The position numbers were made by a program, and so were the translations under genes. This document shows, piece by piece, positions 23,752 through 57,229 of a stretch of DNA of 64,000 nt (position 1 is its first letter; each line of letters begins with the position of its first letter). Location: contig DATDOM010000066.1 of the NCBI GenBank assembly GCA_035293285.1, positions 20,249-84,248 on the forward strand, read 5' to 3'. Under the pieces are notes generated by a model. That model was not told the origin of the DNA. It saw nothing but the letters and a program-made list of their open reading frames with translations, and did no database searches. Source of the stretch: Candidatus Nanoarchaeia archaeon. GTDB taxonomy: Archaea; Nanobdellota; Nanobdellia; Woesearchaeales; GW2011-AR4.

Positions 23752-24050
23752 GATTCAAACACGGGTTTTGTTAAAAATTTAAAAATTGTATTTTAATAAG
23801 ATTTCAGGAATAGTTACGCCTCGCCATTTCGCTCGGCATACATGGATTATCAAATCCGCACACTCGCCCCATTTTGGGCGAAAATTTATCCGTGGGACTT
23901 CAAGTCCCACTTGATTCGCCGTTAACTCGCGCAACGGTTATCGGTGTTCATCCACGCCACGTAAAATTATTGAAATATTACGAGGCAAAATTTTACTGGA
24001 AACAAAAAATTTGCCGAGCGAAACTAGGGTTGGCTCAAGACAACGGATTT
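23752..24050 (+). repeat. GC-hairpin mosaic repeat, copy 4 (leader-A-B-C-D-E)
   Basis: Aligns with copy 6 over a ~65-nt AT-rich leader plus modules A-E. Contains the hairpin GTGGGACTTCAAGTCCCAC at 23892-23910. Confidence 0.75.
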
Positions 24051-24074
24051 AAGATTTGAATTTTAGAAATTAAA

Positions 24075-32660: not shown

Positions 32661-33458
32661 ATGAATAATTATATAAAAATCTACTCTGTTGATTTATCTA
32701 TGTATGAAAGAATTGTTTCACTAGCGCCAAGCAATACTGAAATTATCTATGCGCTTGGTGCAGAAGATAAGCTTGTAGCCTGCACAAGATACTGCGATTA
32801 TCCAGCACAAGCAAAATCAAAGCCCAGGATTGGAGGCTGGCTTGACATAAATGACGAGCTTGTAAAAAGCTACAATCCGGACTTAATCCTGACTTCAACT
32901 TTTGTGCAGGACAAAATAACTGAAAGATATAGGAAAAATAGGATGAATATTGTTGCACTGATGCCAAAAACTTTGGATGGGGTTTTTGAAAGTATTGTTA
33001 AAATAGGAGAATTGGTTGAAAAACAAAAAGAAGCAAAAAAATTGGTTGAATCAATGAAAAATGGGATTAATGAAGTTGGAAATAAAACAAAGGCAGTTAA
33101 AATCAAACCAAGAGTTTATATCGAGGAATGGCATAAGCCGCCGACAGTTTCAGGCAATTGGGTTCCTGATTTGGTAAAGGCTGCAGGCGGAAATTACAGA
33201 CTGATAAAATCAGGAGAGTACAGCAAAGAAGTAACTACCAAACAAATACAGGATTATGATCCTGAAATAATAGTTGTTTCAATCTGCGGAATGTGCGACA
33301 AAGTTCCAAGAGAATGGATTACAAAACGGGAAGGCTGGCAGAATTTAAGCGCAGTAAAAAATGAAAAAGTTTTTGTTTTTGACGATTCTTTACTCAACAG
33401 GCCGGGGCCAAGGCTGGTTGAAGGGTTAAGAAAATTGTATGAAGTTGTACGTGTTTAG
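32661..33458 (+). CDS. periplasmic-binding-protein fold protein, BtuF/cobalamin or iron-siderophore binding-like
   Basis: RIVSLAPSNTEIIYALGAEDKLVACT, PDLILTS, and a C-terminal NRPGPRLVEGL. Confidence 0.7.
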   Translation: MNNYIKIYSVDLSMYERIVSLAPSNTEIIYALGAEDKLVACTRYCDYPAQAKSKPRIGGWLDINDELVKSYNPDLILTSTFVQDKITERYRKNRMNIVALMPKTLDGVFESIVKIGELVEKQKEAKKLVESMKNGINEVGNKTKAVKIKPRVYIEEWHKPPTVSGNWVPDLVKAAGGNYRLIKSGEYSKEVTTKQIQDYDPEIIVVSICGMCDKVPREWITKREGWQNLSAVKNEKVFVFDDSLLNRPGPRLVEGLRKLYEVVRV

Positions 33459-33475
33459 AAATATTAAAGTTAATT

Positions 33476-33551
33476 CAATCTGTCGCTTTGAGCGACCCTA
33501 GTTACACTCGGCGAAATTTGACAGACACTAAATTTCGCCTCGAAATATTGC
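33476..33551 (-). repeat. GC-hairpin mosaic repeat, copy 7 (module E only)
   Basis: The reverse complement reads TTCGAGGCGAAATTT-loop-AAATTTCGCCGAGTGTAACTAGG-GTCGCTCAAAGCGAC-AGATTG. Confidence 0.75.
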
Positions 33552-33617
33552 AATAAATAACGGAACTCTGATAGGCATCTTAGGTTAATTAATTGCCAGA
33601 AATCATTAAATTTTCAA

Positions 33618-33977
33618 TTAGTGTGCGGGCGCTGGTTCTGGATTAGAATCTGGTTTATTAGACGAACCTGAATAGGACATTGAACTATTGAACCAATCAT
33701 AAAATCCACTCCCAAATTGAATGCCGCTATCTGCCAAATATTTACCAGATTCTCCAAGATCTCCAAAAAATCTTCCTAAGCCATATGGCTGCTTCTTTTT
33801 TTCGTGTCCATTGGCAGCATGGTCCTGTCCCGGGATTCCGTGAGGAGCAGCGCCATGGTCTCCCTGAGCCTGAGCATTATGTATCATTTGTTCCAGTTGC
33901 TGCTGTGACGGCTGCGCCTGTTGCCCACCATGTCCTTCTGGAGATTCTCCGTGTTTTTCTTCTTTGTGTTCTGCCAT
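33618..33977 (-). CDS. His/Gln/Gly-rich small protein (119 aa)
   Basis: Low-complexity H/Q/G/A-rich N-terminal half (HKEEKHGESPEGHGGQQ...DHGAAPHGIPGQDHAANGHE). Noticeably GC-richer than its surroundings. Confidence 0.5.
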   Translation of the reverse strand: MAEHKEEKHGESPEGHGGQQAQPSQQQLEQMIHNAQAQGDHGAAPHGIPGQDHAANGHEKKKQPYGLGRFFGDLGESGKYLADSGIQFGSGFYDWFNSSMSYSGSSNKPDSNPEPAPAH

Positions 33978-34039
33978 TTTGTTTATTGTTGTAATGTAAT
34001 TGTGTTTTAATGTAATTGTGTTTTTAATGTTTTTTGTTC

Positions 34040-34945
34040 TTAAGCAGGGTTTTCTGCCGGCGCTGCTTTTGGAGCCGGAGCTGCTCCTGAAAAATAACTG
34101 TCAAGGGTTTTTCCAATAGCATAAATTGGCTCTGAAACCGCCTTAAGTGAATTTGAATAAAGCTTTCCTGTTACGCTGACAGCACCTTCAATAATTGGAA
34201 GCGGGTTCAATGCTTTTGTCAGATTACTGATTTTTGCATTTTCTGATTTTACGCCTACAATCCTAAATAACAGGCCCATCAGTGAAGAGTATGCAAGCTG
34301 AACCGGCAATCCGTAAGGAGCCAAGAATAGGACGTTAATTGCAGCTAATGGCAATACATATTTCCAGGTCCTCTTGACTGTTTGCATGAATTCTTTTTTG
34401 TACAGTTCACCTAATCCCTTAAAACTGTGGTTTTGGATTATATGATTTAAGCCCATGTATGCTCCGACAAAAACAGCCTGTCCTAGTGCCAATCCACCAA
34501 CAGCAGCAACTCCTCCTAAAATTGGACCACCTAAACCTGTAACATATTGCTTTCCAACTTCAATATTTGAAAACATCCATCCAAGTCCCGGTGCTAATGC
34601 CGTCCCAACAACTGCTTCTTTTCCAGCCTTGACAAAATTAAGAGACTTGTTTTCAAGTTTATCCTGAATCAATGAGCCAAGCGCTAATGGTCCTGCAACA
34701 AGACCGGCATTCAAACTCATCATAGGATTGTAAATTGGCGTGTTTGGAATATTAAATACAAGCGGAGACGCAAGACCTGCTCCCAAAGCTGCAGTTTTCG
34801 AAAGCCCTTCAACTATTTCGTCAAGTGGTTTTTGGGATTTAGGTTCTTTTCCTTGCTCGCCCGTACCGTGGTCGGCATTGTTGCCTTGAGCTTCTTTCAG
34901 TTTTTCTTCGAGTCCTGACGGAGTTTCTTGAGCTTCTTCAGCCAT
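34040..34945 (-). CDS. Gly/Ala-rich integral membrane protein (301 aa)
   Basis: Acidic N-terminus followed by several glycine-zipper-like hydrophobic spans. Confidence 0.6.
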   Translation of the reverse strand: MAEEAQETPSGLEEKLKEAQGNNADHGTGEQGKEPKSQKPLDEIVEGLSKTAALGAGLASPLVFNIPNTPIYNPMMSLNAGLVAGPLALGSLIQDKLENKSLNFVKAGKEAVVGTALAPGLGWMFSNIEVGKQYVTGLGGPILGGVAAVGGLALGQAVFVGAYMGLNHIIQNHSFKGLGELYKKEFMQTVKRTWKYVLPLAAINVLFLAPYGLPVQLAYSSLMGLLFRIVGVKSENAKISNLTKALNPLPIIEGAVSVTGKLYSNSLKAVSEPIYAIGKTLDSYFSGAAPAPKAAPAENPA

Positions 34946-35078
34946 CTTTCTCCTCCAAGAGTTTTCTGACTGCGTACTCTACAACATGGCTTTTGTTTCG
35001 GAATTTTCCGGAAGAAAGAGATTTCATTACCTTAAGGACAAGTTCTTCGTCCATTGTAATACTCATTTTATGTTTCAT
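34938..35078 (-). CDS. ribbon-helix-helix (CopG-like) DNA-binding protein (46 aa, not in ORF track)
   Basis: Own translation: MKHKMSITMDEELVLKVMKSLSSGKFRNKSHVVEYAVRKLLEEKDG. The stop overlaps the ATG of the 301-aa gene by 8 nt. Confidence 0.6.
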   Translation of the reverse strand: MKHKMSITMDEELVLKVMKSLSSGKFRNKSHVVEYAVRKLLEEKDG

Positions 35079-35197
35079 AAATTCCCAAAAATGTTAGCAC
35101 TTAAAAGTAGTATTTTATACTACTAATATAAAAAGTTTTCTATTTGTCATTACTAAAAAATAGTTACAAATTTGAGAAACTGTTGTATTTTTGGATA

Positions 35198-35274
35198 CAA
35201 TCGGTCGCTTTAAGCGATCCTAGTTACACTCGGCAAAACTTCTTCTGCCATTAAAGTTTTGCCTCGGAATATTC
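35198..35274 (-). repeat. GC-hairpin mosaic repeat, copy 8 (module E only)
   Basis: The reverse complement reads TTCCGAGGCAAAAC-loop-GTTTTGCCGAGTGTAACTAGG-ATCGCTTAAAGCGAC-CGATTG. Confidence 0.75.
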
Positions 35275-35325
35275 ACTAATTTTTAAAAAGTGACGAAGCG
35301 CGGCTTTTTATAAATTCTACCAAAA

Positions 35326-35490
35326 GGTATATATACCAATAATATGAAAGATAAAACCACAAGATTTAAATATGACTGTTATACAGAATGGAATATAAAT
35401 TTTAGATTAATATACCAAATAGTATAGTAATACTAAATCAAAACTTTTAAATATAAAATAAGTAAATAGGTATATATTCCAATTGGTATA
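35326..35490. promoter_or_regulatory. palindromic operator-like sites in the divergent RHH / ATPase intergenic region
   Basis: GGTATATATACC (35326-35337, perfect palindrome), TATACCAAAT (35411-35420), and GGTATATATTCCAATTGGTATA (35469-35490, contains the palindrome CCAATTGG). Confidence 0.45.
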
Positions 35491-35502
35491 GAGTTGACGT
35501 AA

Positions 35503-36645
35503 TTGAATAAAAGAGGGTTAGCCGGCAGGGAGTACTACATAGACTTATTAGATAAAAATACAAATTCTTTCAGAAAAGGCGAAGGGAAAAATATTGCACT
35601 CCTCGGCCCAAGAAGATGCGGCAAGACTTCAATTCTAAAGCACCACGCCCAAAACTCAGGCGAGATTATTTCAGTTTACATTGACGTTGAAAAAATCAGC
35701 CTGAATCCTGAAAATTTTGCTGTTGAGTTTGTGTGGAATATAATCCAGTCTTCTGTCAAAAAAACCTTTTCAGAAAGCGAGGGCATTGGATTTCTTGAAA
35801 AAATAAAAAAACACGAAGCTGAACTCGGTAAAAATTCTTTTTCTTTGATAAAAACAATCGAAAATGAACTATTAAAAATAAAGCCTGACCAGAGGCTTTT
35901 GGTAAAAAGTGCATTTGATTTTGCCAATGTTTTTGGAACAGAGAAAAACAAAAAAATCCTCCTGTTATTGGACAATTTTGAAAATATTTTTGATTTGAAC
36001 AATTTTTCTCAGGTAAAAGATGCCATTTCATTAATAGATTATGGCGCAAAATATGTCAGATATGTTGTTGCCAGCTCTGCCGTAAGGGAATGCATCTCGC
36101 TTCTGAAAAATTTTGAATGCTTTGAAATAAAGAATCTCGAAAAATCAAAGTGTGTTGAGTTAATTGAAAGCATTATCGGAAATGCTAACAGAAAAGCCTG
36201 TGAAGAAATTTTTTCATTCAGCAAAGGCCATCCGTTTGTTGCGGTCTCCATTGCAAAAAGATTTCTTGAGACAAAAGACGCAAAAAAAGCATTTTTAGTG
36301 GAACTCCTTGTAAAAGACAGTCCTGTCTATAATTACTGCAGCGAATCATACAATTATTATTACAATCGTGCACGCGGCCAGACTCTGCTCAAGACTATCC
36401 TGAAAGTTGTTGCAAGTGAAGAGCTCAGGCTAAGCGAGATAGCAAAGAAAATTTACAGAAGCGCGCCTGTAACAAAGGCAATTCTTGAAAGGCTAATTGA
36501 TGCGGATATAATCCACAAAAAAGACAATAAATTCTATTTTGGAGATGACGTTCTTAGGGTGTGGGTCAAACTGACTTCTGATGGTTACGATTTCATTGAT
36601 TCTATTGATGATAAAATTTTGGAGGAAGCTGGCAAAAAACTATGA
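35503..36645 (+). CDS. Arch_ATPase (PF01637-like) AAA-type NTPase with C-terminal wHTH
   Basis: TTG start. LAGREYYIDLL, Walker A LLGPRRCGKTS, Walker B-like ILLLLDNFE, and a C-terminal LRLSEIAKKIYRSAPVTKAILERLIDADII. Confidence 0.75.
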   Translation: MNKRGLAGREYYIDLLDKNTNSFRKGEGKNIALLGPRRCGKTSILKHHAQNSGEIISVYIDVEKISLNPENFAVEFVWNIIQSSVKKTFSESEGIGFLEKIKKHEAELGKNSFSLIKTIENELLKIKPDQRLLVKSAFDFANVFGTEKNKKILLLLDNFENIFDLNNFSQVKDAISLIDYGAKYVRYVVASSAVRECISLLKNFECFEIKNLEKSKCVELIESIIGNANRKACEEIFSFSKGHPFVAVSIAKRFLETKDAKKAFLVELLVKDSPVYNYCSESYNYYYNRARGQTLLKTILKVVASEELRLSEIAKKIYRSAPVTKAILERLIDADIIHKKDNKFYFGDDVLRVWVKLTSDGYDFIDSIDDKILEEAGKKL

Positions 36646-39140
36646 GCAAAAAAAACCTTAGCTGGATTTTTGCAATGATTTTGCTAGCTTTAGTTCCTGC
36701 AGTTTATGCCCAAAGCTGGACTCAAGGAATTGGTTTTGTCGTAATTAATGCGCTTGTAGTTGGGATTGTGTTATTTGTATTGCAGTCATTCCTTATACCA
36801 AACAAGGAGGGTAAAGAAAAAACTGCAATCTGGGTTGTAATAGCAGTAACTTCGCTCTTGATTTCGTGGTTCTATGGACGTGGCGGATTTATCTGGAACA
36901 CTGGGCCCCTTGCAAAATTCTTCAATGTGTACTTATTGGTCAATGCGCTTGTAATCGGAACCTTCCTTTACGTTGTGCTTGGCTTGATGGGATTAAAAGA
37001 AAAGCTTGGCTCCAAGGAAGGAACGACCGGCTACATCATTTTGCTTTTCATAGTATCAGTAATGTTTGCATTCCAGCTTGGCAACCAGTGGATATGGAGC
37101 CAGACAACAGTAGCCAGATTCATAGACTCATTATTTGGAACTGACGGAATTTTAAATCCGAATCCTCCATTGTACAGGCTCTGGGTTTTCCTGTCAAGCG
37201 CAGTCTTGTTATCATTTTTCTTTGCAGGATACCTGCTAAAAGGAGGAGTAAACGGCAAAAACGGTGTAAGCTACGCACTTGCAATTGTCCTTGCTGCAAG
37301 CATGGCAAGCCAGGGTGCAAGCCTTGGTGCAGTCATACAGTTGGGAGAGCTTGTGTTTACAATATTATTTTTCCAGACCGTAAATGAAACATTCGGAAAA
37401 GATAATCAAATAATAGCGGGGTTTGTTTCAATTAGCCTGGTAGCCTGGGCTTCTGCTGCGGCTACCGCATCAATACCCGAGTACAGGGGATTGTTAGGGT
37501 CAATGTTCTGTAAAACTGGATTAATAGAATGCACTCAGCTGGCGGCACAATCGGCTGCAGCAACTGGCGTTTTTGGGTGGATAAAAACGCTTGGGATGTG
37601 GATTCTCATAATAATTGCAGTAATTGTGGTTTTATTATACAAGGCATTTAAAGGCGGCGGAGAGGACAAGAAGAAATGGCTTACAATACTTGCAGTATTA
37701 GCAATCTTAGGGATAATATTGCTGCCAGGATGGATATTCATTCCATTTTTGATTTTCATGGCCATAATAGGGCTGATTGTTTGGGGCATGAGCAGGGGAG
37801 AGAAGAATAGCAGAATTTTTACACTTGGTTTAGGAGGCCTAAAAAAGAAATTGAGTACAATATTTACAAATGCCAAGCTTTATAGGGATGTTCCTGAAGG
37901 AAGGGAGCCTCAAATATTCAAAGAAAATAAACATATGTTCCAGGCACTGGCAAATTATGTGACTCGTTCGGAAATAAATTACAGGTATTGGGCTTTCATC
38001 AAGACCGGAATAAAATTAGGAAATCAGCTTGCCCCAAAGATAGGAAAATTCAATGATCCAAAAAAACTTAGAAAAGATATAATATATTACAGAAGCGGGG
38101 GCACAGTTATAGAAGGCAATAGGCCAATAAAAGTAGAAGGCTGGAACAGGCTAAATCTTGAAGCGGTTAATTTGATGAATCGATTTTACTATTTGATTAG
38201 TATGGCGTATATTGCCGCAGAGTACAACCTCAAAGCAACTAACCAGTACCACACAGAAGCGGCAGAATTTGTTGCAATTGAAGTTGCGGCAAGGGAACTG
38301 TTAGAAAAAATGAAGAGAAATCATGAACAATACAAAAGAAGGTTAGACGCCTATGGCAACCATCATGTCCTAAAAGTCTACAGGGACATAACATTAGACA
38401 TGTCAAACCCAACAGGGGAAGTGGAGCAGCATCCGCAAATATTCGCCAGGCCCGGCGCTGCATTTGATATGGGAAACCAAGATCCCGCTGTAAAAAATAA
38501 TGTAGCCAAAGCGGACCAATTTGGAGTTGGCGAGGAATTAAACCAGTATGGGGAAGTAGTAGCTGACATAATTGGACAAAAAGCAAAGGATCCAAGAGAA
38601 TATAAAAAACCAAGAAGGATTGTTAATCCGGAGGATATAATAAATTTCCCGGATTTTATACAATTCATGGAAAACATCTCAAAGGATTGGAAAGGATTGG
38701 CAGAAGATGTAAGATACGGACTGCACCACCCAAAAAGCAGAACTTTAGGTGCTTATATAACTGCTTATAGAGAACATAAATATTATCCTGAATGGGCTGA
38801 TGAGCTAATAAAACCAACCGGTTCGCCAACTCAAGAAGACCCTGCTATAGATTACAGGGCCATGGCAGACCCGGGTAAAAATATTTATTGGGGAAGAAAG
38901 AACTATTACGATGGAAGCGAGGGAATTCCAAGAGATAATCCCTATCCGAACCTATGCTCTTTAGGCTTGACCAAATACTTGAAATTACGTGTTGAATTGG
39001 ACATAAAGGACCATCATAAAGTAGAGGAATTTTTGTACAAGTATCCGGCTGATAGCGGAGTCCCGGAAAAAAAGATGCCTGGCCAGCCAATAGGAATACA
39101 TTTGTCTGACAAGCCTCCAGAGCCGGCACAAGGTGGATAG
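36642..39140 (+). CDS. 832-aa polytopic membrane protein with a ~450-aa soluble C-terminal region of unknown family
   Basis: ATGA overlap with the ATPase gene. Signal-like N-terminus (ILLALVPAVYA-QS), about 10 hydrophobic spans to about aa 385, and a C-terminal domain shared with the 972-aa protein. Confidence 0.8.
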   Translation: MSKKNLSWIFAMILLALVPAVYAQSWTQGIGFVVINALVVGIVLFVLQSFLIPNKEGKEKTAIWVVIAVTSLLISWFYGRGGFIWNTGPLAKFFNVYLLVNALVIGTFLYVVLGLMGLKEKLGSKEGTTGYIILLFIVSVMFAFQLGNQWIWSQTTVARFIDSLFGTDGILNPNPPLYRLWVFLSSAVLLSFFFAGYLLKGGVNGKNGVSYALAIVLAASMASQGASLGAVIQLGELVFTILFFQTVNETFGKDNQIIAGFVSISLVAWASAAATASIPEYRGLLGSMFCKTGLIECTQLAAQSAAATGVFGWIKTLGMWILIIIAVIVVLLYKAFKGGGEDKKKWLTILAVLAILGIILLPGWIFIPFLIFMAIIGLIVWGMSRGEKNSRIFTLGLGGLKKKLSTIFTNAKLYRDVPEGREPQIFKENKHMFQALANYVTRSEINYRYWAFIKTGIKLGNQLAPKIGKFNDPKKLRKDIIYYRSGGTVIEGNRPIKVEGWNRLNLEAVNLMNRFYYLISMAYIAAEYNLKATNQYHTEAAEFVAIEVAARELLEKMKRNHEQYKRRLDAYGNHHVLKVYRDITLDMSNPTGEVEQHPQIFARPGAAFDMGNQDPAVKNNVAKADQFGVGEELNQYGEVVADIIGQKAKDPREYKKPRRIVNPEDIINFPDFIQFMENISKDWKGLAEDVRYGLHHPKSRTLGAYITAYREHKYYPEWADELIKPTGSPTQEDPAIDYRAMADPGKNIYWGRKNYYDGSEGIPRDNPYPNLCSLGLTKYLKLRVELDIKDHHKVEEFLYKYPADSGVPEKKMPGQPIGIHLSDKPPEPAQGG

Positions 39141-40958
39141 ATGGCAGATACAAACCAAGATAATCCAGAATCAGGTTCGCCCGTTGTGAAGATAGATTTA
39201 GTCATAAATATTTTGACCCGAATCACAACGCTTCAAGACCAGATGGAAGAAACAATAGATACAAAGAATAAGTACAGATTGCTGCTTTTTGAGCCCAAAT
39301 TATTGTTTGGATACAAAAAAGACTTTGCTGCATTTTTTGTTGCTTTTAACCTATACAAAGATTACTGCTCTTCTGTAATGGGCGCTGAAGAAATAAGGAG
39401 AGAGATAAATAAAATAAGGATATATGATGCGCGTTTAGCCCTTAGCATAGAAAACTTATTGGGCTTATCAAATAGTTATGGCTCTTTATTCTCCGGTTTG
39501 ATTGCTGCATTACGGCAAGGCAAAGAGTATTTTGTTTCATATATTTCTACCCATGACAAAGAATTGGCTTTAAGGGCCAAATCAATAAGCAACAATAGAG
39601 TATCGAGCCAATTGACCTTCCTGTTTTCCTCCATTAGCGGCCGAGAAGTTGATTACCTCCTTTCATACAAAAATGATTCCGGCAACTGGGGCAATTACTC
39701 CATAAATAATAGGATAGAATTTTTCATATCAAGAGTGAATTTGTACTTAAGAGGAGGCAATGAAAGCAATAATCAATTTAAGGGATTGTTAAATGATTTT
39801 GGTGACAAGGAAGTTACCGTTTCAATCTTGAAAAACAAAGCTGTCATGTACTTGTGGAAATATAATGAACAAATAAAATTCCTTAATTCCCTTATAGAGT
39901 TATGTAAAAAATCAGGAGAGAGCGGAGAATGGAAAGGGTTTTTTGGGAAGCAGGGATTTTGGACTAATATTGACAAATATGCCGCCAGATTGGAAAAAGA
40001 GTTTTCCAATGAGGAGTTCGCAAAAACCATAATTTCAAAAAAGAAAGAAATTGGGGAGAGCCCGGAAGGGTGGGGGGGCAGTTGGAACGGAGTGAATCTT
40101 GCGACTCCCGGATTATTGAATAATTTGCTGTATAAATTAAATCATCCTTCTTTTCAAAGGAAAATGATAATAATTCCGGCATCCCAGGAATTAAGAATAA
40201 TTTTTGAGAATAGGGAAGCTGTATTGAAAGAAAACAGGGATAATCATATAAAAGAACTTATTGGAATCATAACAAATACAGGCGGTTTAAAATCTAAAAA
40301 AAGAATAGCTGAAAATTTCAGGTCAGAATTAATAGGTTATAGTAAAAAATCAATAGAGCGTTTGGGTGAAGATTTATCCAGGTTCGCGAAGGTTGCAAAT
40401 GAGCCGTTGTTATCTTATGAGGAATTCATGGAAGAGTTTGACAAATACACTTTAAAAATAGACCCGCAAACACTCTGGAGCAGCATAAGCCGTTTGTCAG
40501 GCATAATGAAATCAAATGACAGTTACACAGCAGATTCCATAAACAACTTTAAATTTCTAAGAAGCATAAGCGATTTGACTTTGGTTAGTGGCGCAGACTT
40601 GTCAGCAAAGCAAGCATTGTTAAAGATAGAGATGCTTAGGAGCTTTGACCACTTAAACGATGAAGACATAAAAAATTTGGAAAGCTTGGTTCCAAAAGCT
40701 GAAGGCTTATTGGTTAAACTAAATAATTTAGGAGAATATTTAAAATCCAAAATAAATGAGAGTTACACTCTCAGACCTGAGTTTATCCTGAATCTGGACT
40801 TTAATAATATCAGAATAAGAAATTTAAACAATGATTTAGGTTATGTGAGAAAAGTTCTCTTAAGGCTCGTTAAGGATTTCAGGATTAAAGAAGTTGCAGA
40901 TCAATCTTACTTTACCAGCAGTACGAAAGATAATAGAATAGAAAACAGGGGTGCTTAA
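39141..40958 (+). CDS. 605-aa soluble helical protein, unknown family
   Basis: The ATG directly abuts the upstream TAG, with AGGTGG 5-10 nt upstream. No motif recognised. Confidence 0.75.
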   Translation: MADTNQDNPESGSPVVKIDLVINILTRITTLQDQMEETIDTKNKYRLLLFEPKLLFGYKKDFAAFFVAFNLYKDYCSSVMGAEEIRREINKIRIYDARLALSIENLLGLSNSYGSLFSGLIAALRQGKEYFVSYISTHDKELALRAKSISNNRVSSQLTFLFSSISGREVDYLLSYKNDSGNWGNYSINNRIEFFISRVNLYLRGGNESNNQFKGLLNDFGDKEVTVSILKNKAVMYLWKYNEQIKFLNSLIELCKKSGESGEWKGFFGKQGFWTNIDKYAARLEKEFSNEEFAKTIISKKKEIGESPEGWGGSWNGVNLATPGLLNNLLYKLNHPSFQRKMIIIPASQELRIIFENREAVLKENRDNHIKELIGIITNTGGLKSKKRIAENFRSELIGYSKKSIERLGEDLSRFAKVANEPLLSYEEFMEEFDKYTLKIDPQTLWSSISRLSGIMKSNDSYTADSINNFKFLRSISDLTLVSGADLSAKQALLKIEMLRSFDHLNDEDIKNLESLVPKAEGLLVKLNNLGEYLKSKINESYTLRPEFILNLDFNNIRIRNLNNDLGYVRKVLLRLVKDFRIKEVADQSYFTSSTKDNRIENRGA

Positions 40959-43877
40959 GTGGCAGACGCGCATGGTGCAGAAGGTGGAGGAGATGCCAAG
41001 GGAGGAGGCAAAGCAGGCTTTTTTTCTGAATGGGTAGAAATTGGCAGGAATTGGTTTAAAAGAAAAGTACCATTTGTAGACAGGTTCAGATTTGGGAGAA
41101 GGAAAGTAGGTGACAGGCCGCATCCAATTCAATATGAGCTTCAGAGCACCTGGATAGAAAAAAATACCAATTTGTTTGGCACCACTTTAAAGAGGGTAGA
41201 AAACGAGTGGGCTAAATTGGCAGTTTCAATGGGTGAAGGGCAAGACCCTAACAAAGGTTTTCTGGAAGATCCTCAAGGGATAGTTCCTCTTTACCAGAAA
41301 CTCGGGGTTTATGCCGACTTGGAAAGGATACCCCTGGAAGTAAACTGGTTTGAAACAGGAACGGGATTTCATGAAAGCAAGTTGTCATTTGAGATGCCTG
41401 AAGAAGCTGTTTGGAGAAAATATGGCTGGATAGAAGATGAGGTAAAAAAATTAAAGAAAAACTCAAGCAAAATCAAAGCAATAAGTGATAATGTAAAGAT
41501 AAAGAGGATTTCACTTCACCCGGGAACAGTCATTCATGAAGGCAAAATTGAAGAAGATATCTATGCTTTTGGCATTGAAAGGGCAAAACAAATGATAGGG
41601 GAAATGACAGCTTATTCTGAAATACTTAGCGTAGGCTATTTAAGACAAAAAGGTGTCGGCACTGAAGTTAGAACAAAAATTGATAATCTGATAAAACAGT
41701 TTACTTCGTTATTCCAGCAAATTGCGGAAATGGAAAATGAGGCATATAGTTTGCTCCAGGATTTGACCGGTGATGCCAAAATACTAAAAGGAAGATGGGA
41801 ACTTATAGCTGACCAGACTGCGCCAGAGTCAACAAACGTATCAACAATAAGATTTCCCCATACTTTTAGAATTATCAGGCAATATGCACTTCTGGAAATA
41901 ACTGAAAAAATAGAGAAAAAAACCGGAATTACTACTGAGAGCTATGAAAATAAAAGAGTAGTTACTTCTTACATAGATCCCAATCAGCATACTGCTACCA
42001 GTAATATTTATACAATAGAAAAGCAGAAACTTAATGATGAATTGGCATCAATAAACAGCATTATGACTGACGAATTGAAGTATATAGTTCGTGATATTCA
42101 GAGTTTTGAGCAATTGGTTAACAATACTGGAAGTTTTGAGAATGTCATAAAAGGGATTATCAGAGCAGAAAGAAATAATTTGATTGGCGTTCTTAACAGC
42201 ACCGACCTGCCAGAAGCCAAAATACAGAATATAACAGATTTGATTACTCATCCCGATCCTACTTTGGCCAGTTTGCTCGAAGAATCACTCAAAAATATTG
42301 TTTCAATAATTTCAAGTGTGGTAAACTCCAGAAAATCCGCTGACGAAAAAGTGGATGATATAGAAAACTCGTTGCTCAATTCATTTAGTGCAATCAGGAT
42401 TATTGAAGAGTTCCTTGCATATCACGAAAATGACGTAGTGGGTATTCTAAAGGAACGGGATGATAGGGGGAATAAAAGAAAAGTTGATGATGTTTTTGAG
42501 GATATCAGGCATGTTTTACTCCCAAATGAATTGGCCACAAGCAGTATTATAGACACCATATTAAATGATAAAAATCATCGGGCTCAAATAAAAGCATTAA
42601 TCAATAAACAAAAGGATGAGTTTGTAACGGCAAGAACCATAATTCGATTCATACGAATTTCTGTAGTGAGGAAAAATCTAGATGATAAAGAAGCTGGATT
42701 AAAAACAAGGCTGGAAATACTCAATATCAAGAAATCTGACATTGAATTAAAATTTCTGGAAGAAAAAAAGAGGCTTCAGGATAGGTTAGACGAGATAGAT
42801 GGTATAAGTCCCCGCGATATGCAGGATATTCTTGATTCTATCAGGCCAAAAATTAGCGCCCCGAATGCCGGGACAAAAGGTTTTTACAAAAGACCGGAAG
42901 AGCTAAAGTATGGTTTAGATGAATATGGGTACCCGTTAGAAATTGATCCAGGTAATGGGATAGTGCTAATTGATAAATGGTGGCATGAGATAGGCCAAAA
43001 TGAATGGCAAATGAAGACAATTGCACAAAAACATGAAGGTGCGGATACATTAAGAAAAAATTTGGGCGTTACTGTCAATTATACTTCCAATCCTGGTGAA
43101 AAACCAAAATTAGGGGATATAAACATTGCCGGAACTCCTGCCAGAGAAATACGTTATGTAACTGATCAAAGATTTATAGGGCAGGTCGATATACTTGACT
43201 TAAGTGCGTTTATGTATTCTTATTGGGATGCTGTAAGAGATGATTTAAGGGATGGCAGATACCACCCCCATTCAAAAAGTACTGGTGACTATGTTATAGA
43301 AGCTATGGGGGGATATCATAAGGATTTGGGCGCACCTTATTCCAGAGACTGGGTTCCTGGCTTAAAAAGCAAGGGAATGTTTTTTTCGAGAAGGGGTGTT
43401 GTGCCATTAAAGCCAATTCAACTTCACATAGACGTGCCAACAGAGCTTATTAAAAGTAATCCTGAAACTTTCAATAAGCATATCCCTGATGATGAGAAAA
43501 CAGTAACAAGGGATTACGCCATGAGAATGCCGGACGGCAGTGTAGAAAAAGGAGAAAGGCATCCTTCAAAGTATAATCCAGCATTTGATAGAAGGTCGTG
43601 GCACATTGAAAAATATGTACATTGGGGAAGAATGTATTATTGGGAATGGGCAGGCGGAATAAACAGGTGGTCAGAAAATACATTCCCCCATGTTTCAACC
43701 AGAGGATTGGCATTGTACATAGCCCATCTTGCATCTACAGACACTTATTATTATAAAGAAGCAGAAGAGGCAATCGAAGGGCATTCGTTTGATTACGGAA
43801 CCAGGGGAATGGGTGCATTCCCAATTATGAACCCATTAAGCGGAAAAAACATAGTAGGGGAAGGCACAGAAAATTAA
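40959..43877 (+). CDS. 972-aa protein, unknown family: Gly/Lys-rich N-terminus, long helical middle, conserved C-terminal domain
   Basis: The GTG start directly abuts the upstream TAA, with AGGGGTG upstream. The C-terminal ~320 aa are paralogous to the C-terminus of the 832-aa protein. Confidence 0.8.
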   Translation: MADAHGAEGGGDAKGGGKAGFFSEWVEIGRNWFKRKVPFVDRFRFGRRKVGDRPHPIQYELQSTWIEKNTNLFGTTLKRVENEWAKLAVSMGEGQDPNKGFLEDPQGIVPLYQKLGVYADLERIPLEVNWFETGTGFHESKLSFEMPEEAVWRKYGWIEDEVKKLKKNSSKIKAISDNVKIKRISLHPGTVIHEGKIEEDIYAFGIERAKQMIGEMTAYSEILSVGYLRQKGVGTEVRTKIDNLIKQFTSLFQQIAEMENEAYSLLQDLTGDAKILKGRWELIADQTAPESTNVSTIRFPHTFRIIRQYALLEITEKIEKKTGITTESYENKRVVTSYIDPNQHTATSNIYTIEKQKLNDELASINSIMTDELKYIVRDIQSFEQLVNNTGSFENVIKGIIRAERNNLIGVLNSTDLPEAKIQNITDLITHPDPTLASLLEESLKNIVSIISSVVNSRKSADEKVDDIENSLLNSFSAIRIIEEFLAYHENDVVGILKERDDRGNKRKVDDVFEDIRHVLLPNELATSSIIDTILNDKNHRAQIKALINKQKDEFVTARTIIRFIRISVVRKNLDDKEAGLKTRLEILNIKKSDIELKFLEEKKRLQDRLDEIDGISPRDMQDILDSIRPKISAPNAGTKGFYKRPEELKYGLDEYGYPLEIDPGNGIVLIDKWWHEIGQNEWQMKTIAQKHEGADTLRKNLGVTVNYTSNPGEKPKLGDINIAGTPAREIRYVTDQRFIGQVDILDLSAFMYSYWDAVRDDLRDGRYHPHSKSTGDYVIEAMGGYHKDLGAPYSRDWVPGLKSKGMFFSRRGVVPLKPIQLHIDVPTELIKSNPETFNKHIPDDEKTVTRDYAMRMPDGSVEKGERHPSKYNPAFDRRSWHIEKYVHWGRMYYWEWAGGINRWSENTFPHVSTRGLALYIAHLASTDTYYYKEAEEAIEGHSFDYGTRGMGAFPIMNPLSGKNIVGEGTEN

Positions 43878-43898
43878 AGTGTTTCGAATTATTGGCAA

Positions 43899-44690
43899 AT
43901 GACAAAAATATCATTCCTCGGAACAGGAAAAATGGCGGCAGCATTGATTAGCTCAATCCATAAAAAAGATTTTGTCAAGTCAATTATTGCAAGCGGAAGA
44001 AATGAAGAAAATCTTGATAAAATAAAAAATAAATTCAATATCAAGACAACCAAAGACAACAAAGAAGCTGCAAGAAATTCGGATGTGATTTTTCTCTGCG
44101 TCAAGCCGCAGGATTTTGATTTGTTATTAAATGAAATAAAAAGTGAAGTAAAAAGCCAGTTAATTGTCTCCATTGCCGCAGGAATAAGAACAATCCACAT
44201 TGAAAAAATTCTTGGCAAGAGAAGAGTAATACGAGTGATGCCTAATGTCAACTGCCTTGTCGGCGAGATGGCTGCAGGATTTGCAGGCGGAAAATACGCA
44301 AAAAAAGAAGATATGGATTTAGTTGAAAAAATTTTAAGTGTATCCGGGCTTGCAATAAAAGTAAAAGAAAACCAGCTGGATGCGCTTTCAACTATAAGCG
44401 GCTGCGGTCCTGCATTTTTTGCTTATTTCATAAAACATATGTGTGACGCTGCTGCAAAAAAAGGACTGCCAAGAGAAACTGCATATAAGCTTGCTGCAAA
44501 AACACTGCAAGGCACTGGAAAGCTTCTTTTGGAAAAAAACCTGAGTCCGGATGAATTGATTAAAATGGTTACATCAAAAAAAGGCGTCACCCTTGCCGGG
44601 CTTGAAGTGCTTGAAAAGGAAAAAGCTGGTAAAATCCTAGAAAAAATGATATTCGCAGCGCATAAAAGGAGTCTTGAGTTAGGTAAATAA
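43899..44690 (+). CDS. proC: pyrroline-5-carboxylate reductase
   Basis: ISFLGTGKMAAALI, VIFLCVKPQD, VIRVMPN and SGCGPAFF motifs. Confidence 0.9.
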   Translation: MTKISFLGTGKMAAALISSIHKKDFVKSIIASGRNEENLDKIKNKFNIKTTKDNKEAARNSDVIFLCVKPQDFDLLLNEIKSEVKSQLIVSIAAGIRTIHIEKILGKRRVIRVMPNVNCLVGEMAAGFAGGKYAKKEDMDLVEKILSVSGLAIKVKENQLDALSTISGCGPAFFAYFIKHMCDAAAKKGLPRETAYKLAAKTLQGTGKLLLEKNLSPDELIKMVTSKKGVTLAGLEVLEKEKAGKILEKMIFAAHKRSLELGK

Positions 44691-51665: not shown

Positions 51666-52481
51666 ATGCTTGGTATTCTAGAAACAGAACTTAAAATCAG
51701 GGGATTTAGCGATAGAACAGTGCAAAGTTATCTGGCACATAACAAGAGTTTTCTCCAGTTTATAAATAAAGAGCCTCAGCTGGCGGATACAAGTGATGCA
51801 AAAAGATACCTTGCGTATTTGATGTCAGACCGAAAATACAGCCCAAGGAGCGTAAATCTTGCCCTAAGTAGCGTGAAGTTCCTTTTTAGGGAGATCTTGC
51901 AAAACACGGCCTTTAATGCAGTCAGGGCACCAAAGATAGAGAAAAAGATCCCGACAGTTCTCTCAAAAGATGAGATAAGGAAGCTTTTGGACGCTGCAGT
52001 TAACCCAAAACACAGGCTTTTGATTAAGTTTCTTTACTCGACAGGCATGCGTGTGAGTGAATGTGTAAATATTCAAATTGATGACCTGGATTTTGATGAA
52101 AAAATCGGCAAAATAATGCACGGAAAAGGCAACAAGGAAAGGTATTTGATACTTTCTGAAGGACTTATCAAAGATCTCAAAAGCTACCTTGAGACCAAAA
52201 AAGACAATGGAGATTATGTGTTTTCAGTTAAAGGCAGTCCAATCACGACAAGACAGGCACAAAAAATTGTGAAGGAAACTGCAAAGAAAGCAGGCATAAA
52301 GAAGAGGGTTTTCTGCCATGCCCTGAGAAGCAGCTTTGCGACACATTTGCTTGAATCCGGGACGGACATAAGGGTTATACAGGAGCTTTTAGGGCATGCT
52401 GATCTTTCTACCACTCAGATTTACACAAAGGTGTCAACTGAGCAGCTAAAAAAAGTGAAAAATCCTCTTGATCAGCTATAA
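51666..52481 (+). CDS. xerA: tyrosine recombinase, XerA/XerC-D-like
   Basis: 271 aa. N-terminal SAM-like domain (RTVQSYLAHNKSF), catalytic residues in STGMRVSE, HALRSSFATHLL and LGHADLSTTQIYT. Confidence 0.85.
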   Translation: MLGILETELKIRGFSDRTVQSYLAHNKSFLQFINKEPQLADTSDAKRYLAYLMSDRKYSPRSVNLALSSVKFLFREILQNTAFNAVRAPKIEKKIPTVLSKDEIRKLLDAAVNPKHRLLIKFLYSTGMRVSECVNIQIDDLDFDEKIGKIMHGKGNKERYLILSEGLIKDLKSYLETKKDNGDYVFSVKGSPITTRQAQKIVKETAKKAGIKKRVFCHALRSSFATHLLESGTDIRVIQELLGHADLSTTQIYTKVSTEQLKKVKNPLDQL

Positions 52482-57150: not shown

Positions 57151-57229
57151 AAGTAAGAGGTCCGAACTAGGTATTTAATCAAGTAATACAATTCAAAATC
57201 TTTTTATAAGAAGGTGTATTCCAGAGCTT

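What the first reader, a model, noticed from the sequence alone, without database searches (positions are those of the whole stretch)
35503..43877. Translationally coupled four-gene module: NTPase, 832-aa polytopic membrane protein and two large orphan proteins (605 and 972 aa). Best candidate for an undescribed system.
Four same-strand genes are packed with no spacing:
- ATGA overlap at 36642-36645.
- TAG directly followed by ATG at 39138-39143.
- TAA directly followed by GTG at 40956-40961.
- Each junction is preceded by a purine-rich GGAGGA, AGGTGG or AGGGGTG element.

Gene 1 is an Arch_ATPase-type P-loop NTPase (GPRRCGKTS, LLLDNFE) with a C-terminal wHTH. Gene 2 has a signal-like N-terminus, about 10 TM spans and a ~450-aa soluble region. 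Genes 3 and 4 together give about 1,580 aa of mostly helical protein in which I recognise no known domain. Gene 4 begins with a Gly/Lys-rich, basic amphipathic segment (GGGDAKGGGKAGFFSEWVEIGRNWFKRKVPFVDRFRFGRRK) that could bind membrane or nucleic acid.

The module sits between a repeat-flanked cassette and the housekeeping proCAB operon, under palindromic operators. An NTPase with an HTH, a membrane platform and giant helical partners fits either a defence or abortive-infection-like machine, or a cell-envelope or host-contact apparatus of a DPANN-type archaeon. Both ideas are inference only.
Basis: partly seen in the sequence, partly recalled or inferred. Interest (0 to 1): 0.85.

Follow-up and report, generated by a model that had tools for sequence, protein, structure and literature searches.

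The report
Hypervariable membrane-complex operon of Woesearchaeota
A tightly packed four-gene operon is real and sits at the same chromosomal place in dozens of tiny DPANN (Woesearchaeota/Nanoarchaeia) archaea; three of its proteins resemble nothing known, they exist as deeply different exchangeable versions, and the fourth protein most likely switches the operon on and off.

Summary
Four same-strand ORFs (380, 832, 605 and 972 aa) have the stated ATGA, TAG-ATG and TAA-GTG junctions.

The order g1-g2-g3-g4 recurs in 30 non-redundant complete loci from Woesearchaeota/Nanoarchaeia MAGs and metagenomes, usually with the same housekeeping flanks.

Genes 2-4 match nothing in Pfam, NCBIfam, PADLOC, PHROGs, PDB sequences, or Foldseek against PDB and BFVD.

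New findings:
- The cytoplasmic C-terminus of g2 and the C-terminus of g4 share one new domain (hhalign 98.8%).
- g2 is often split into two genes.
- A ~190-nt block upstream of g1 holds two BRE/TATA-like promoters and 4-5 palindromes (TATAC-N6-GTATA). It is conserved in 25 of 25 testable loci, as is g1's recognition helix. Three lineages lacking g1 lack the palindromes and carry a small RHH-like gene in its place. g1 is therefore most likely the operon's ATP-binding regulator, not its motor.
- A divergent RHH plus Mpv17-like membrane-protein pair always accompanies the module.
- Between genomes whose flanks and g1 are 85-96% identical, g2-g4 and the Mpv17-like gene can be only 21-57% identical. 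Elsewhere they are as conserved as the flanks. This suggests exchangeable allelic cassettes.

Function is unproven. The pattern best fits a membrane-anchored recognition or conflict module.

The parts
33473..33519 (+). Left copy of a dispersed two-hairpin repeat (~85 nt with flanks). Together with the copy at 35195 it brackets the RHH / Mpv17-like / small-ORF unit.
   Evidence: Direct repeat D1, 87% identity. There are four copies in the window and none in other loci. A few compensatory changes occur in both hairpins.
33618..33977 (-). 119-aa Gln/His/Gly-rich ORF downstream of the Mpv17-like gene. No homologue was found in any related locus, so its membership in the module is doubtful.
   Evidence: ORF list. 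BLASTP against ORFs of the 17 loci held at that point (L002-L019, duplicates excluded) hits only itself. No Pfam hit.
34040..34945 (-). 301-aa membrane protein, Mpv17/PMP22-like, transcribed divergently from g1. One or two copies accompany the module in every locus with enough sequence. It is part of the hypervariable set.
   Evidence: Pfam PF04117: E 3.4e-3 for the window copy (below cut-off) and 1.3e-8 / 35.2 bits for a paralogue in L005 (above cut-off). Co-occurrence. Between L011 and L014 it is 36-57% identical while the flanks are 85-96%.
34938..35078 (-). 46-aa ribbon-helix-helix-like protein (MKHKMSITMDEELVLKVMKSLSSGKFRNKSHVVEYAVRKLLEEKDG). It overlaps the start of the Mpv17-like gene by 8 nt.
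   Evidence: Called gene in the source contig. 50-78% identical copies pair with each Mpv17-like gene in 15 other loci. Weak VapB/ParD RHH hits.
35195..35241 (+). Right copy of the dispersed two-hairpin repeat.
35316..35490 (+). Conserved promoter/operator block. 16-bp palindromes of the TATAC-N6-GTATA type lie at 35316-31, 35380-95, 35411-26 and 35475-90. Two BRE/TATA-like boxes lie at 35365-72 (TTTAAATA) and 35445-53 (TTTTAAATA). The last palindrome lies between TATA box 2 and the g1 start codon.
   Evidence: Sequence. Enrichment against shuffles. 13-locus alignment with long invariant blocks. 3-6 sites within 260 nt upstream of g1 in 25 of 25 loci. Present in distant L019. Absent upstream of the g1-less operon in L018.
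35503..36645 (+). g1: a 380-aa P-loop NTPase (AAA_14 / Arch_ATPase-like) with a C-terminal winged helix. Proposed ATP-binding autoregulator of the operon.
   Evidence: Pfam. 80% mean column identity in 14 sequences. The helix IYRSAPVTKSLLERL is kept even at 36-40% overall identity. The ATGA overlap with g2 is kept in most loci.
36642..39140 (+). g2: 832 aa. It has a signal-like N-terminus, about 11 TM helices (aa ~1-385) and a cytoplasmic region (aa ~400-832). The last part of that region, the 'X domain' (aa 622-814, nt 38505-39083), is homologous to the C-terminus of g4.
   Evidence: Hydropathy and positive-inside loops. AF2 model, pLDDT 71 overall and 80-90 in the C-terminal region. 12 homologues. 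hhalign 98.8%, E 1.4e-16. Split into two genes in many loci, with the C part keeping 2-3 TM helices. No Foldseek match in PDB.
39141..40958 (+). g3: 605 aa, with no TM segment in 25 of 30 loci. It is the most divergent member of the module and is unrelated to g2 and g4.
   Evidence: 13-sequence alignment. hhalign negative against g2 and g4. No consistent Pfam hit among members. Always sits between g2 and g4.
40959..43877 (+). g4: 972 aa. It has a basic Trp-rich N-terminal helix, a conserved helical N-region (aa ~55-330), a variable helical insert (aa ~330-635, absent in the 'short forms' of 550-650 aa) and the X domain (aa 653-949, nt 42915-43805).
   Evidence: Alignments. 77 homologues. 292 clusters at 50% identity. 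AF2 pLDDT above 90 for aa 650-780 and most of 830-950, with a low-confidence dip at about aa 790-820. No match in PDB or BFVD.

Best explanation
This is a lineage-specific operon fixed in the chromosome of Woesearchaeota/Nanoarchaeia (DPANN) archaea.

Its core is g2-g3-g4. g2 anchors in the membrane through about 11 helices and exposes a large domain on the cytoplasmic face. g4 is a soluble paralogue of that domain, extended by a variable helical spacer. g3 is a helical partner. Together they are inferred to form a complex on the inner face of the membrane. A divergently encoded Mpv17-like membrane protein probably belongs to it.

g1 is most likely not the motor. It appears to be a nucleotide-binding winged-helix regulator that binds 4-5 TATAC-N6-GTATA palindromes around two tandem promoters, so that it controls its own operon. 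One palindrome lies between TATA box 2 and the start codon, so repression is the likeliest mode.

The structural genes occur as deeply diverged allelic cassettes that are replaced within this conserved regulatory frame. That is the signature of a recognition or conflict function, for example against viruses or in dealing with partner cells, rather than plain housekeeping.

Shown: anatomy, co-conservation, domain sharing, the operator array, and the divergence pattern. Inferred: complex formation, binding of g1 to the palindromes, repression, and the conflict role.
For: Gene order g1-g2-g3-g4 is invariant in 30 non-redundant complete loci, with conserved 4-nt overlaps.

The X domain is shared by g2 and g4 (BLASTP; hhalign 98.8%). 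Both have the same order of secondary-structure elements before it.

The topology is consistent in fused and split g2.

The operator array is conserved more strongly than the coding sequence. It is enriched against shuffles. It is present upstream of g1 in 25 of 25 loci and makes up nearly all sites in each locus.

The g1 recognition helix is invariant down to 36% overall identity.

The three g1-less loci have a 52-56-aa RHH-like ORF in g1's position, overlapping g2; in L018, the one searched at one mismatch, no palindrome lies upstream of the operon.

The RHH plus Mpv17-like pair is linked to the module in both arrangements.

Divergence pattern:
- L011 vs L014: flanks 85-96%, g1 90%, Mpv17-like 36-57%, g2 29-41%, g3 23%, g4 21%.
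- In that pair, nucleotide homology stops about 280 nt inside g2.
- L008, L010 and L052 show cassette identity equal to or above that of g1 and the flanks.
- Identity of g1 and g4 is barely correlated (Spearman rho 0.17, 435 pairs).
Against: - No protein of the core has a recognisable effector, sensor or enzymatic domain, so the conflict role rests only on the evolutionary pattern.
- The module sits at a fixed syntenic position in every related contig recovered, which is unusual for defence systems.
- The extracellular loops of g2 are short and relatively conserved, so there is no obvious surface-recognition element.
- Some of the low identity may reflect weak constraint on helical regions.
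- Binding of g1 to the palindromes is untested. The conserved RHH protein is an alternative binder. The negative evidence comes from three related g1-less loci only, and the one-mismatch palindrome search was run on just one of them (L018).
- Translational coupling of g1 to g2 could mean that g1 is also a stoichiometric subunit.
Confidence: 0.4

Rival explanations
1. Housekeeping envelope or membrane scaffold. g2-g3-g4, with the Mpv17-like protein, would be a lineage-specific structural or transport complex, for example membrane shaping, division-site or lipid/solute uptake machinery of a reduced-genome archaeon. The high divergence would reflect weak constraint plus co-evolving subunits that can only be replaced together.
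For: The locus is fixed, syntenic, apparently single-copy and lies among housekeeping genes such as the proCAB and PAC2 genes and a periplasmic-binding-protein gene. It is present in every related contig with enough sequence. There are no defence-HMM hits. Long helices and a variable helical spacer suggest a structural role. Within one type the genes evolve at ordinary rates (L008, L010, L052).
Against: Genomes with 85-96% identical flanks carry cassettes only 21-41% identical. g1 and g4 divergence is decoupled. This is hard to explain for a pure housekeeping complex. An elaborate multi-operator promoter implies conditional expression.
Confidence: 0.25
2. One reading: a defence or abortive-infection machine. 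The NTPase-wHTH would be the sensor or motor subunit of the complex, and the membrane proteins would be the effectors.
For: g1 is a STAND/Arch_ATPase-like NTPase with weak hits to defence-associated P-loop models (mad8 and PDC-S01 at E ~7e-4; BrxF at 2e-3). The cassettes are hypervariable. Mpv17-like channel-type membrane proteins could act as effectors. VapBC modules are inserted next to the locus in some genomes. g1 is translationally coupled to g2.
Against: No PADLOC model matches g2-g4. The defence-model hits to g1 cover generic P-loop regions and fall far below curated cut-offs. The locus is fixed, not sporadic. g1 evolves like a housekeeping gene while the rest varies, and it can be replaced by a 52-56-aa RHH-like protein. 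That fits a regulator better than a sensor that must track variable partners.
Confidence: 0.12
3. One reading: a secretion or host-contact apparatus. g2 would be a translocon that exports g3 and g4, which lack signal peptides, to the cell surface or into a host cell.
For: g2 has a conserved polytopic membrane domain with invariant polar residues in its helices. g3 and g4 are large, fast-evolving and helical, like many translocated or surface proteins. DPANN archaea depend on host contact (own knowledge).
Against: The g4 X domain is homologous to a g2 domain that topology places in the cytoplasm, in both fused and split forms. No secretion ATPase or known translocon fold was found. The best-conserved part of g4 is its C-terminal domain, not a variable tip.
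Confidence: 0.1
4. Replication origin plus initiator. g1 would be a divergent Orc1/Cdc6-like initiator, and the palindrome array would be origin recognition boxes.
For: The ATPase-plus-winged-helix architecture sits next to an AT-rich, extremely conserved array of repeated palindromes.
Against: No member gave a Cdc6_C hit, and only 2 of 14 gave a weak AAA_22 hit. The PDB profile search found no ORC/Cdc6. The palindromes flank two BRE/TATA-like boxes at promoter distances from the start codon. g1 overlaps g2. A small RHH-like gene takes its place in g1-less lineages. The cumulative GC-skew minimum lies near 16-18 kb, not at 35.3 kb.
Confidence: 0.03
5. Remnant of an integrated mobile element or provirus.
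For: The proteins are unknown and divergent. A tyrosine-recombinase gene lies about 8 kb downstream. A repeat brackets the neighbouring cassette.
Against: The flanks are the same in many genomes, including the recombinase, which looks chromosomal. There are no PHROGs hits and no BFVD fold match. The bracketing repeat is a dispersed genome-specific element.
Confidence: 0.02

Closest known systems
Arch_ATPase / AAA_14 P-loop NTPases with C-terminal winged helix (Pfam PF01637, PF13173; COG1672/COG1373-type archaeal ATPases)
   Same: g1 has Walker A, a Walker-B-like strand, the same size and a C-terminal wHTH. AAA_14 is hit in 14 of 14 members and ATPase_2 in 5 of 14.
   Different: ATPase_2 scores below its gathering cut-off. 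Walker B reads hhhhDNFE: by own recollection, not checked here, the family's usual acidic residue after the Asp is replaced by Asn. No PDB relative is found even with a profile. These families have no established function, whereas here there is a specific conserved operator array and a specific operon.
NTPase-regulated biological conflict systems (STAND/nSTAND-type modules described by comparative genomics; own knowledge)
   Same: An NTPase with an HTH heads an operon of fast-diversifying partner proteins. There is a weak nSTAND_NTPase4 hit in the wHTH region.
   Different: No recognisable effector domain. The chromosomal position is fixed across a whole order-level lineage. The NTPase is the conserved part and behaves like a transcription factor.
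Allelic cassette loci kept in a conserved frame (for example capsule/O-antigen loci, hsdS specificity cassettes, pilin or S-layer variants; own knowledge)
   Same: Conserved flanks and regulators surround a block of co-inherited genes that exists as deeply diverged types. The block's divergence is decoupled from that of the genome.
   Different: The variable products here are mostly cytoplasm-facing proteins of unknown fold, not glycosyltransferases or surface fibres. No invertase or recombinase is associated with the locus.
RHH-regulated two-gene units / type II toxin-antitoxin organisation
   Same: A 46-aa RHH gene overlaps the start of its downstream partner. There are weak VapB/ParD hits.
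   Different: The partner is a ~300-aa Mpv17/PMP22-like membrane protein, not a known toxin. The pair is fixed next to the module, often in tandem duplicate.
Mpv17/PMP22 family (PF04117; by own recollection a eukaryotic organelle-membrane family)
   Same: The divergent membrane protein family matches PF04117 above the cut-off in one paralogue (35.2 bits).
   Different: The window copy scores below the cut-off (17.8 bits). The proteins are archaeal, with a long acidic N-terminal extension. Function is unknown.

Membership tests
AAA_14 / Arch_ATPase (ATPase_2) NTPases (g1) | Walker A P-loop GxxxxGK[ST] | tested here: met
   GPRRCGKTS. G35, G40 and K41 are invariant in both g1 alignments; T42 is invariant among the 14 close homologues and is Ser in one distant sequence, L062, which still fits the GK[ST] pattern.
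AAA_14 / Arch_ATPase (ATPase_2) NTPases (g1) | Score at or above Pfam gathering cut-off | tested here: inconclusive
   AAA_14 scores 29.2 bits against a cut-off of 27, which is met. ATPase_2 scores 25.6 bits against 33.2, which is not met. AAA_14 is hit in 14 of 14 members and ATPase_2 in 5 of 14.
AAA_14 / Arch_ATPase (ATPase_2) NTPases (g1) | Walker B hhhhDE with a catalytic Glu | tested here: not met
   The motif is LLLDNFE. The Asp is kept, the next residue is Asn in nearly every sequence aligned (Asp in L043), and a Glu follows two positions later. Hydrolysis competence is unknown.
AAA_14 / Arch_ATPase (ATPase_2) NTPases (g1) | C-terminal winged helix-turn-helix | tested here: inconclusive
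   Only weak hits: HTH_45, MarR and HTH_24 at E 0.02-0.09, and HTH_Cmi2_C in 8 of 14 members. The segment is the best-conserved part of the protein.
Known anti-phage defence systems (PADLOC-DB 2.0) | Component proteins match system HMMs | tested here: not met
   g2, g3 and g4 give no hit. g1 gives only generic P-loop hits at E ~7e-4.
Known anti-phage defence systems (PADLOC-DB 2.0) | Sporadic, island-like distribution in variable genomic contexts | tested here: not met
   The chromosomal neighbourhood is the same in many genomes.
Orc1/Cdc6 initiator plus origin | AAA+ Orc/Cdc6 ATPase and Cdc6_C winged helix detectable by profile | tested here: not met
   No member gave a Cdc6_C hit; AAA_22 is weak, in 2 of 14. 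The PDB profile search found no ORC/Cdc6.
Orc1/Cdc6 initiator plus origin | Replication starts at the repeat array | not testable with these tools
   Only GC skew is available. Its cumulative minimum is near 16-18 kb, not 35.3 kb. This is weak evidence.
Mpv17/PMP22 (PF04117), for the divergent 301-aa gene | Score at or above the gathering cut-off (27 bits) | tested here: inconclusive
   The window copy scores 17.8 bits (E 3.4e-3). A paralogue at L005:6827-7654 scores 35.2 bits.
Type II toxin-antitoxin pair (RHH antitoxin plus toxin) | Small RHH gene overlapping a downstream gene that belongs to a toxin family | tested here: not met
   The RHH-like gene overlaps its partner. The partner is a ~300-aa membrane protein with no toxin-family hit.
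Secretion systems or archaeal pili | Signature secretion ATPase or known translocon fold | tested here: not met
   g1 is not of the PilB/VirB11, VirB4 or FtsK type. Foldseek of the g2 model against PDB gives nothing below E = 3.

The most novel reading that the evidence does not exclude
A core locus of Woesearchaeota/Nanoarchaeia carries an ancient, balanced polymorphism. Interchangeable cassettes encode a previously unseen membrane-anchored, cytoplasm-facing complex built around a new protein fold (the X domain shared by g2 and g4). The complex is paired with Mpv17-like membrane proteins. It is kept under ATP-gated transcriptional control by a dedicated NTPase-winged-helix factor acting on a five-site operator array. 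This would be a new class of intracellular recognition or immunity system in DPANN archaea, whose genomes by own recollection (not tested here) carry few known defence systems.
Probability: 0.3. Interest if true: 0.85.

Novelty: categorically new. Interest (0 to 1): 0.74.

Why it matters
DPANN archaea have tiny genomes in which a large share of the conserved genes has no known function. How they deal with hosts and viruses is largely unknown.

This locus spends about 10 kb of such a genome. It recurred at a syntenic position in every related Woesearchaeota/Nanoarchaeia contig recovered here. It contains two protein families with confident predicted structure and no known relatives. It also shows two features that can be tested directly:
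- A sharply defined regulator-operator pair (g1 and TATAC-N6-GTATA).
- A pattern of exchangeable allelic cassettes that usually marks molecular recognition or conflict.

It gives a concrete handle on the biology of an uncultured lineage: specific proteins to localise by cryo-ET or proteomics, a promoter to follow in metatranscriptomes, and alleles to correlate with viruses or hosts.

Tried and rejected
Searches on g1-g4 that gave nothing for g2-g4:
- Pfam, NCBIfam, PADLOC and PHROGs on the window proteins.
- Pfam on every member of the g2, g3 and g4 families. This gave only scattered single-member chance hits.
- Profile searches of PDB sequences with the g2, g4 and g1 alignments and a single-sequence search with g1.
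- Foldseek of the g2 model against PDB (best E 3.2), and of the g4 model against PDB (best E 0.35) and BFVD (best E 0.17). All matches were long-helix noise.

Other dead ends:
- The first word-indexed search with full-length g4 found nothing. So did the first genome scan with g4 peptides. This was a sensitivity artefact: the C-terminal-domain profile later found 77 proteins.
- g3 is not a paralogue of g2 or g4.
- Rfam found only three tRNAs in the window and nothing in the upstream region.
- An ncRNA reading of the conserved upstream block was dropped in favour of promoters plus operators. The reasons are the BRE/TATA-like boxes, the palindromes and the fixed distance to the start codon.
- The origin-of-replication and mobile-element readings were considered and rated low (see rivals).
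- Literature searches found no description of this cluster.
- dN/dS was not attempted. The informative pairs are either nearly identical or saturated.

Full report
**1. Observation**

The junctions were read directly from the sequence. ATGA lies at 36642-45, TAG-ATG at 39138-43 and TAA-GTG at 40956-61. Each is preceded by GGAGGA, AGGTGG or AGGGGTG.

The window is a stretch of an 85.7-kb ENA metagenome contig. Its flanks are housekeeping genes:
- Upstream: peptide deformylase, an RNase P subunit and a periplasmic-binding protein.
- Downstream: the proC, proA and proB genes, PAC2 and urocanase.

**2. The four proteins against what is known**

g1 matches AAA_14 just above its cut-off and ATPase_2 (Arch_ATPase) below its cut-off. 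It has weak winged-helix hits at its C-terminus.

g2, g3 and g4 have no hit in Pfam, NCBIfam, PADLOC or PHROGs. Scanning all family members individually gives no consistent hit either. Profile searches against all PDB sequences find nothing.

AlphaFold2 models were built with family alignments:
- g2: mean pLDDT 71, with 80-90 in the C-terminal region.
- g4: mean pLDDT 70.6, with above 90 over aa 650-780 and most of 830-950.

Foldseek finds no significant match for either model in PDB, or for g4 in BFVD. No AlphaFold DB library was available, so 'new fold' is provisional.

**3. Internal anatomy**

Hydropathy, loop charges and the AF2 helices give g2 a signal-like N-terminus (conserved ...P[IV]AYAQ) and about 11 TM helices. 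Lys/Arg-rich loops fall on one side. This places the 450-aa C-terminal region in the cytoplasm.

g1 and g4 have no TM segment in any of 30 loci. g3 has none in 25 of 30.

BLASTP gives two collinear hits. Profile-profile comparison gives 98.8% probability, E 1.4e-16, for g2 aa 622-814 against g4 aa 653-949.

The shared motifs are [ED]D[IL]R.G..HP.S[KR], A[FI]D.R, [HY]WGR..[FY]Y and NP[FY]P.[IL]S[ST].G.

The elements before the domain come in the same order in both proteins: a beta-hairpin containing GTVI.EG, a ~25-residue helix and a ~50-residue helix. g4 therefore looks like a soluble paralogue of the whole cytoplasmic part of g2. Between the long helix and the X domain g4 carries a variable helical insert. 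This insert is absent in the commoner 'short forms' of 550-650 aa.

g3 is unrelated to both.

In many loci g2 is split into two genes. The C-terminal piece keeps 2-3 TM helices, so the X domain stays membrane-anchored on the same side.

**4. Distribution and co-conservation**

- g2 has 12 homologues in the 5.8-billion-protein index.
- A profile of the g4 C-domain finds 77 proteins.
- An exhaustive HMMER scan of 1.84 billion cluster representatives finds 292 clusters (171 at E <= 1e-30).

Wherever a source gives a name, it is 'hypothetical protein' from Woesearchaeota or Nanoarchaeota.

Genome and metagenome scans plus contig look-ups gave 63 related loci. The named MAGs are Woesearchaeota or Nanoarchaeia. 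A few are labelled Methanosarcinales and are probably mis-binned.

HMMs of each part were run on all ORFs of these loci. They show the order g1-g2-g3-g4 in 30 non-redundant complete modules, without exception in order or strand. The 4-nt g1/g2 overlap is kept in most of them.

The neighbourhood is also syntenic: the periplasmic-binding protein upstream, and the proCAB genes and/or PAC2 downstream. The locus behaves as vertically inherited core genome, not as a mobile island.

**5. The regulatory frame**

The ~190 nt directly upstream of g1 are conserved at the DNA level more strongly than the genes themselves. A 13-locus alignment shows long invariant blocks.

The block contains:
- Two BRE/TATA-like boxes, at window 35365-72 and 35445-53.
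- Four to five 16-bp palindromes of the type TATAC-N6-GTATA, at window 35316, 35380, 35411 and 35475. The last lies between TATA box 2 and the TTG start.

In the window there are 6 sites with at most one mismatch, against 0.68 expected in 64 kb. Four of them lie in this block.

In 25 of 25 loci with g1 and enough upstream sequence, 3-6 sites lie within 260 nt of the g1 start. These are nearly all the sites in each 10-20-kb locus. The distant L019 shows the same: 5 sites against 0.5 expected.

g1 itself is unusually conserved, with 80% mean column identity. In relatives only 36-40% identical overall, the segment LRLSEIARKIYRSAPVTKSLLERL stays almost unchanged, and those loci keep the same palindrome.

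Three loci (L018, L046, L051) lack g1. In its place a 52-56-aa RHH-like ORF overlaps the start of g2. In L018, the only one searched at one mismatch, no palindrome lies upstream of the operon.

I therefore read g1 as the operon's own DNA-binding regulator, with a nucleotide-binding domain as its input. Binding and repression are inferred, not shown.

Its Walker B reads hhhhDNFE in nearly every sequence aligned. This suggests a binding switch rather than a fast ATPase, which is also inference.

**6. A second conserved partner**

Divergent from g1, a 46-aa RHH-like gene (34938-35078, minus strand) overlaps the start of a 301-aa membrane protein (34040-34945, minus strand).

This pair occurs once or twice, in tandem, upstream of g1 in the g1-type loci. 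In the g1-less loci it sits convergent, right after g4.

The membrane protein is Mpv17/PMP22-like. One paralogue scores above the Pfam cut-off; the window copy scores below it.

**7. Evolutionary pattern**

g1 evolves like the housekeeping flanks. Median pairwise identity is 71-75% for g1, and the flanks range from 53 to 88%. The medians for g2, g3 and g4 are 33-38%, 25-26% and 30-31%.

This is not simply fast evolution.

L011 vs L014:

| Gene | Amino-acid identity |
|---|---|
| Flanking proteins | 85-96% |
| g1 | 90% |
| Mpv17-like genes | 57% and 36% |
| g2 TM part | 41% |
| g2 C part | 29% |
| g3 | 23% |
| g4 | 21% |

In that pair, nucleotide homology runs from the RHH gene through the promoter, g1 and the first ~280 nt of g2, then stops. 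The L003/L007 pair shows the same, with a stop about 460 nt into g2.

By contrast, L008, L010 and L052 have g1 at 70-80% and flanks at 77-85%. Their g2 and g3 are 70-83% identical and g4 is 88-90%.

Across 435 pairs, g1 and g4 identities are barely correlated (rho 0.17). g3 and g4 are correlated with each other (rho 0.48).

The simplest reading is that the structural block (the Mpv17-like gene, most of g2, g3 and g4) exists as old, deeply diverged types. Within a type it evolves normally. Types are replaced by recombination inside a conserved frame made of the RHH gene, the promoter, g1 and the g2 N-terminus. Formal tree-incongruence tests were not run.

**8. Interpretation**

What is shown:
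- A real operon.
- A new domain shared by the membrane anchor and a soluble partner.
- Strict co-conservation.
- A dedicated, conserved operator array that co-occurs with g1.
- Cassette-like divergence.

What is inferred:
- g2C, g3 and g4 form a complex on the cytoplasmic face of the membrane, probably with the Mpv17-like protein.
- g1 represses the operon through the palindromes in response to nucleotide state.
- The variable cassettes serve recognition or conflict.

Classical defence-island behaviour is not seen, and no effector domain is recognisable. The 'defence' label is therefore not justified as a membership claim. An extracellular host-contact apparatus is disfavoured by the topology. 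A housekeeping scaffold is the main rival. The origin-of-replication and mobile-element readings are unlikely (see rivals).

**9. Comparison with known systems, and novelty**

g1 belongs loosely to the AAA_14/Arch_ATPase group, which is itself functionally uncharacterised. The RHH-like protein and the Mpv17-like protein have weak family links.

g2, g3 and g4 lie outside every library searched, by sequence and by fold. No paper in the held library describes the cluster.

I rate the module as categorically new in kind.

**10. Verdict**

| Item | Verdict |
|---|---|
| Observation | Confirmed |
| Interest | 0.74 |
| Best mechanistic statement | Confidence 0.4 |
| Most novel reading not excluded (a new class of membrane-anchored recognition/immunity cassette system in DPANN archaea) | Probability about 0.3 |

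Noticed in passing
window 33455-33560, 35177-35282, 23965-24070 (-), 57068-57173 (-): A dispersed ~85-nt intergenic repeat with two hairpins (GGTCGC...GCGACC and CGGCAAAAyTT...AArTTTTGCC). A few compensatory changes occur between copies. There are four copies in 64 kb and none in the 63 related loci. No Rfam match was found in the one stretch searched permissively (33400-35520, holding two copies); the whole-window search at gathering thresholds found only three tRNAs. It could be a genome-specific REP/MITE-like element or a small RNA.
   Followed up: partly
window 34938-35078 (-) and 34040-34945 (-); L003, L005, L006, L011, L012, L014, L016 and others: An RHH-like gene of 46 aa is translationally coupled to an Mpv17/PMP22-like membrane protein. 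The pair is often tandemly duplicated. An Mpv17/PMP22-like protein was not expected in an archaeon (family distribution from own recollection, not checked here).
   Followed up: partly
L004:7827-7979; L005:7921-8540 and 5216-5802; L003:4120-4778: VapB/VapC (PIN) or MazE-like toxin-antitoxin pairs lie next to the module in some genomes. In L005 a pair is inserted between the RHH/Mpv17-like unit and the g1 promoter block; in L004 only a weak VapB-like ORF sits there. This shows where the frame tolerates insertions.
   Followed up: no
L003:16421-20485 (the same stretch in L004): Three AAA_14 + DUF4143 ATPase genes cluster directly downstream of g4 in one marine contig. They are paralogous-type ATPases of unknown function, related in kind to g1.
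   Followed up: no
window 51666-52481 (+); L019:15896-16711: A tyrosine recombinase (Phage_int_SAM_4 + Phage_integrase) sits at a syntenic position about 8 kb downstream in both the window and a distant MAG. It is probably a chromosomal Xer-type recombinase rather than a marker of a mobile element.
   Followed up: no
L007, L008, L009, L012, L015 (record titles): Several contigs carrying this Woesearchaeota-type locus are deposited as 'uncultured Methanosarcinales archaeon' MAGs. This is likely mis-binning or mislabelling.
   Followed up: no
window 33618-33977 (-): A 119-aa Gln/His/Gly-rich low-complexity ORF lies downstream of the Mpv17-like gene. It has no homologue in the 17 related loci held when it was searched (L002-L019). 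It may be a lineage-specific addition or not a gene at all.
   Followed up: partly
window 43877-43899; L011:17455-17470: Only 21 nt, with no T-run, separate g4 from proC in the window. In L011 the two genes overlap. proCAB may therefore be read through from the module's promoter in some genomes. In others PAC2 or different genes follow g4.
   Followed up: no
window 40959 (g4), 39141 (g3), 34945 and 33977 (minus-strand genes): Both large soluble proteins start with MAD, and most g4 homologues in the 13-locus alignment start with MA[DE] or MVE. The two minus-strand genes start with MAE. This is a recurrent N-terminal Met-Ala-acidic motif of unknown meaning, possibly N-terminal processing or acetylation.
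   Followed up: no
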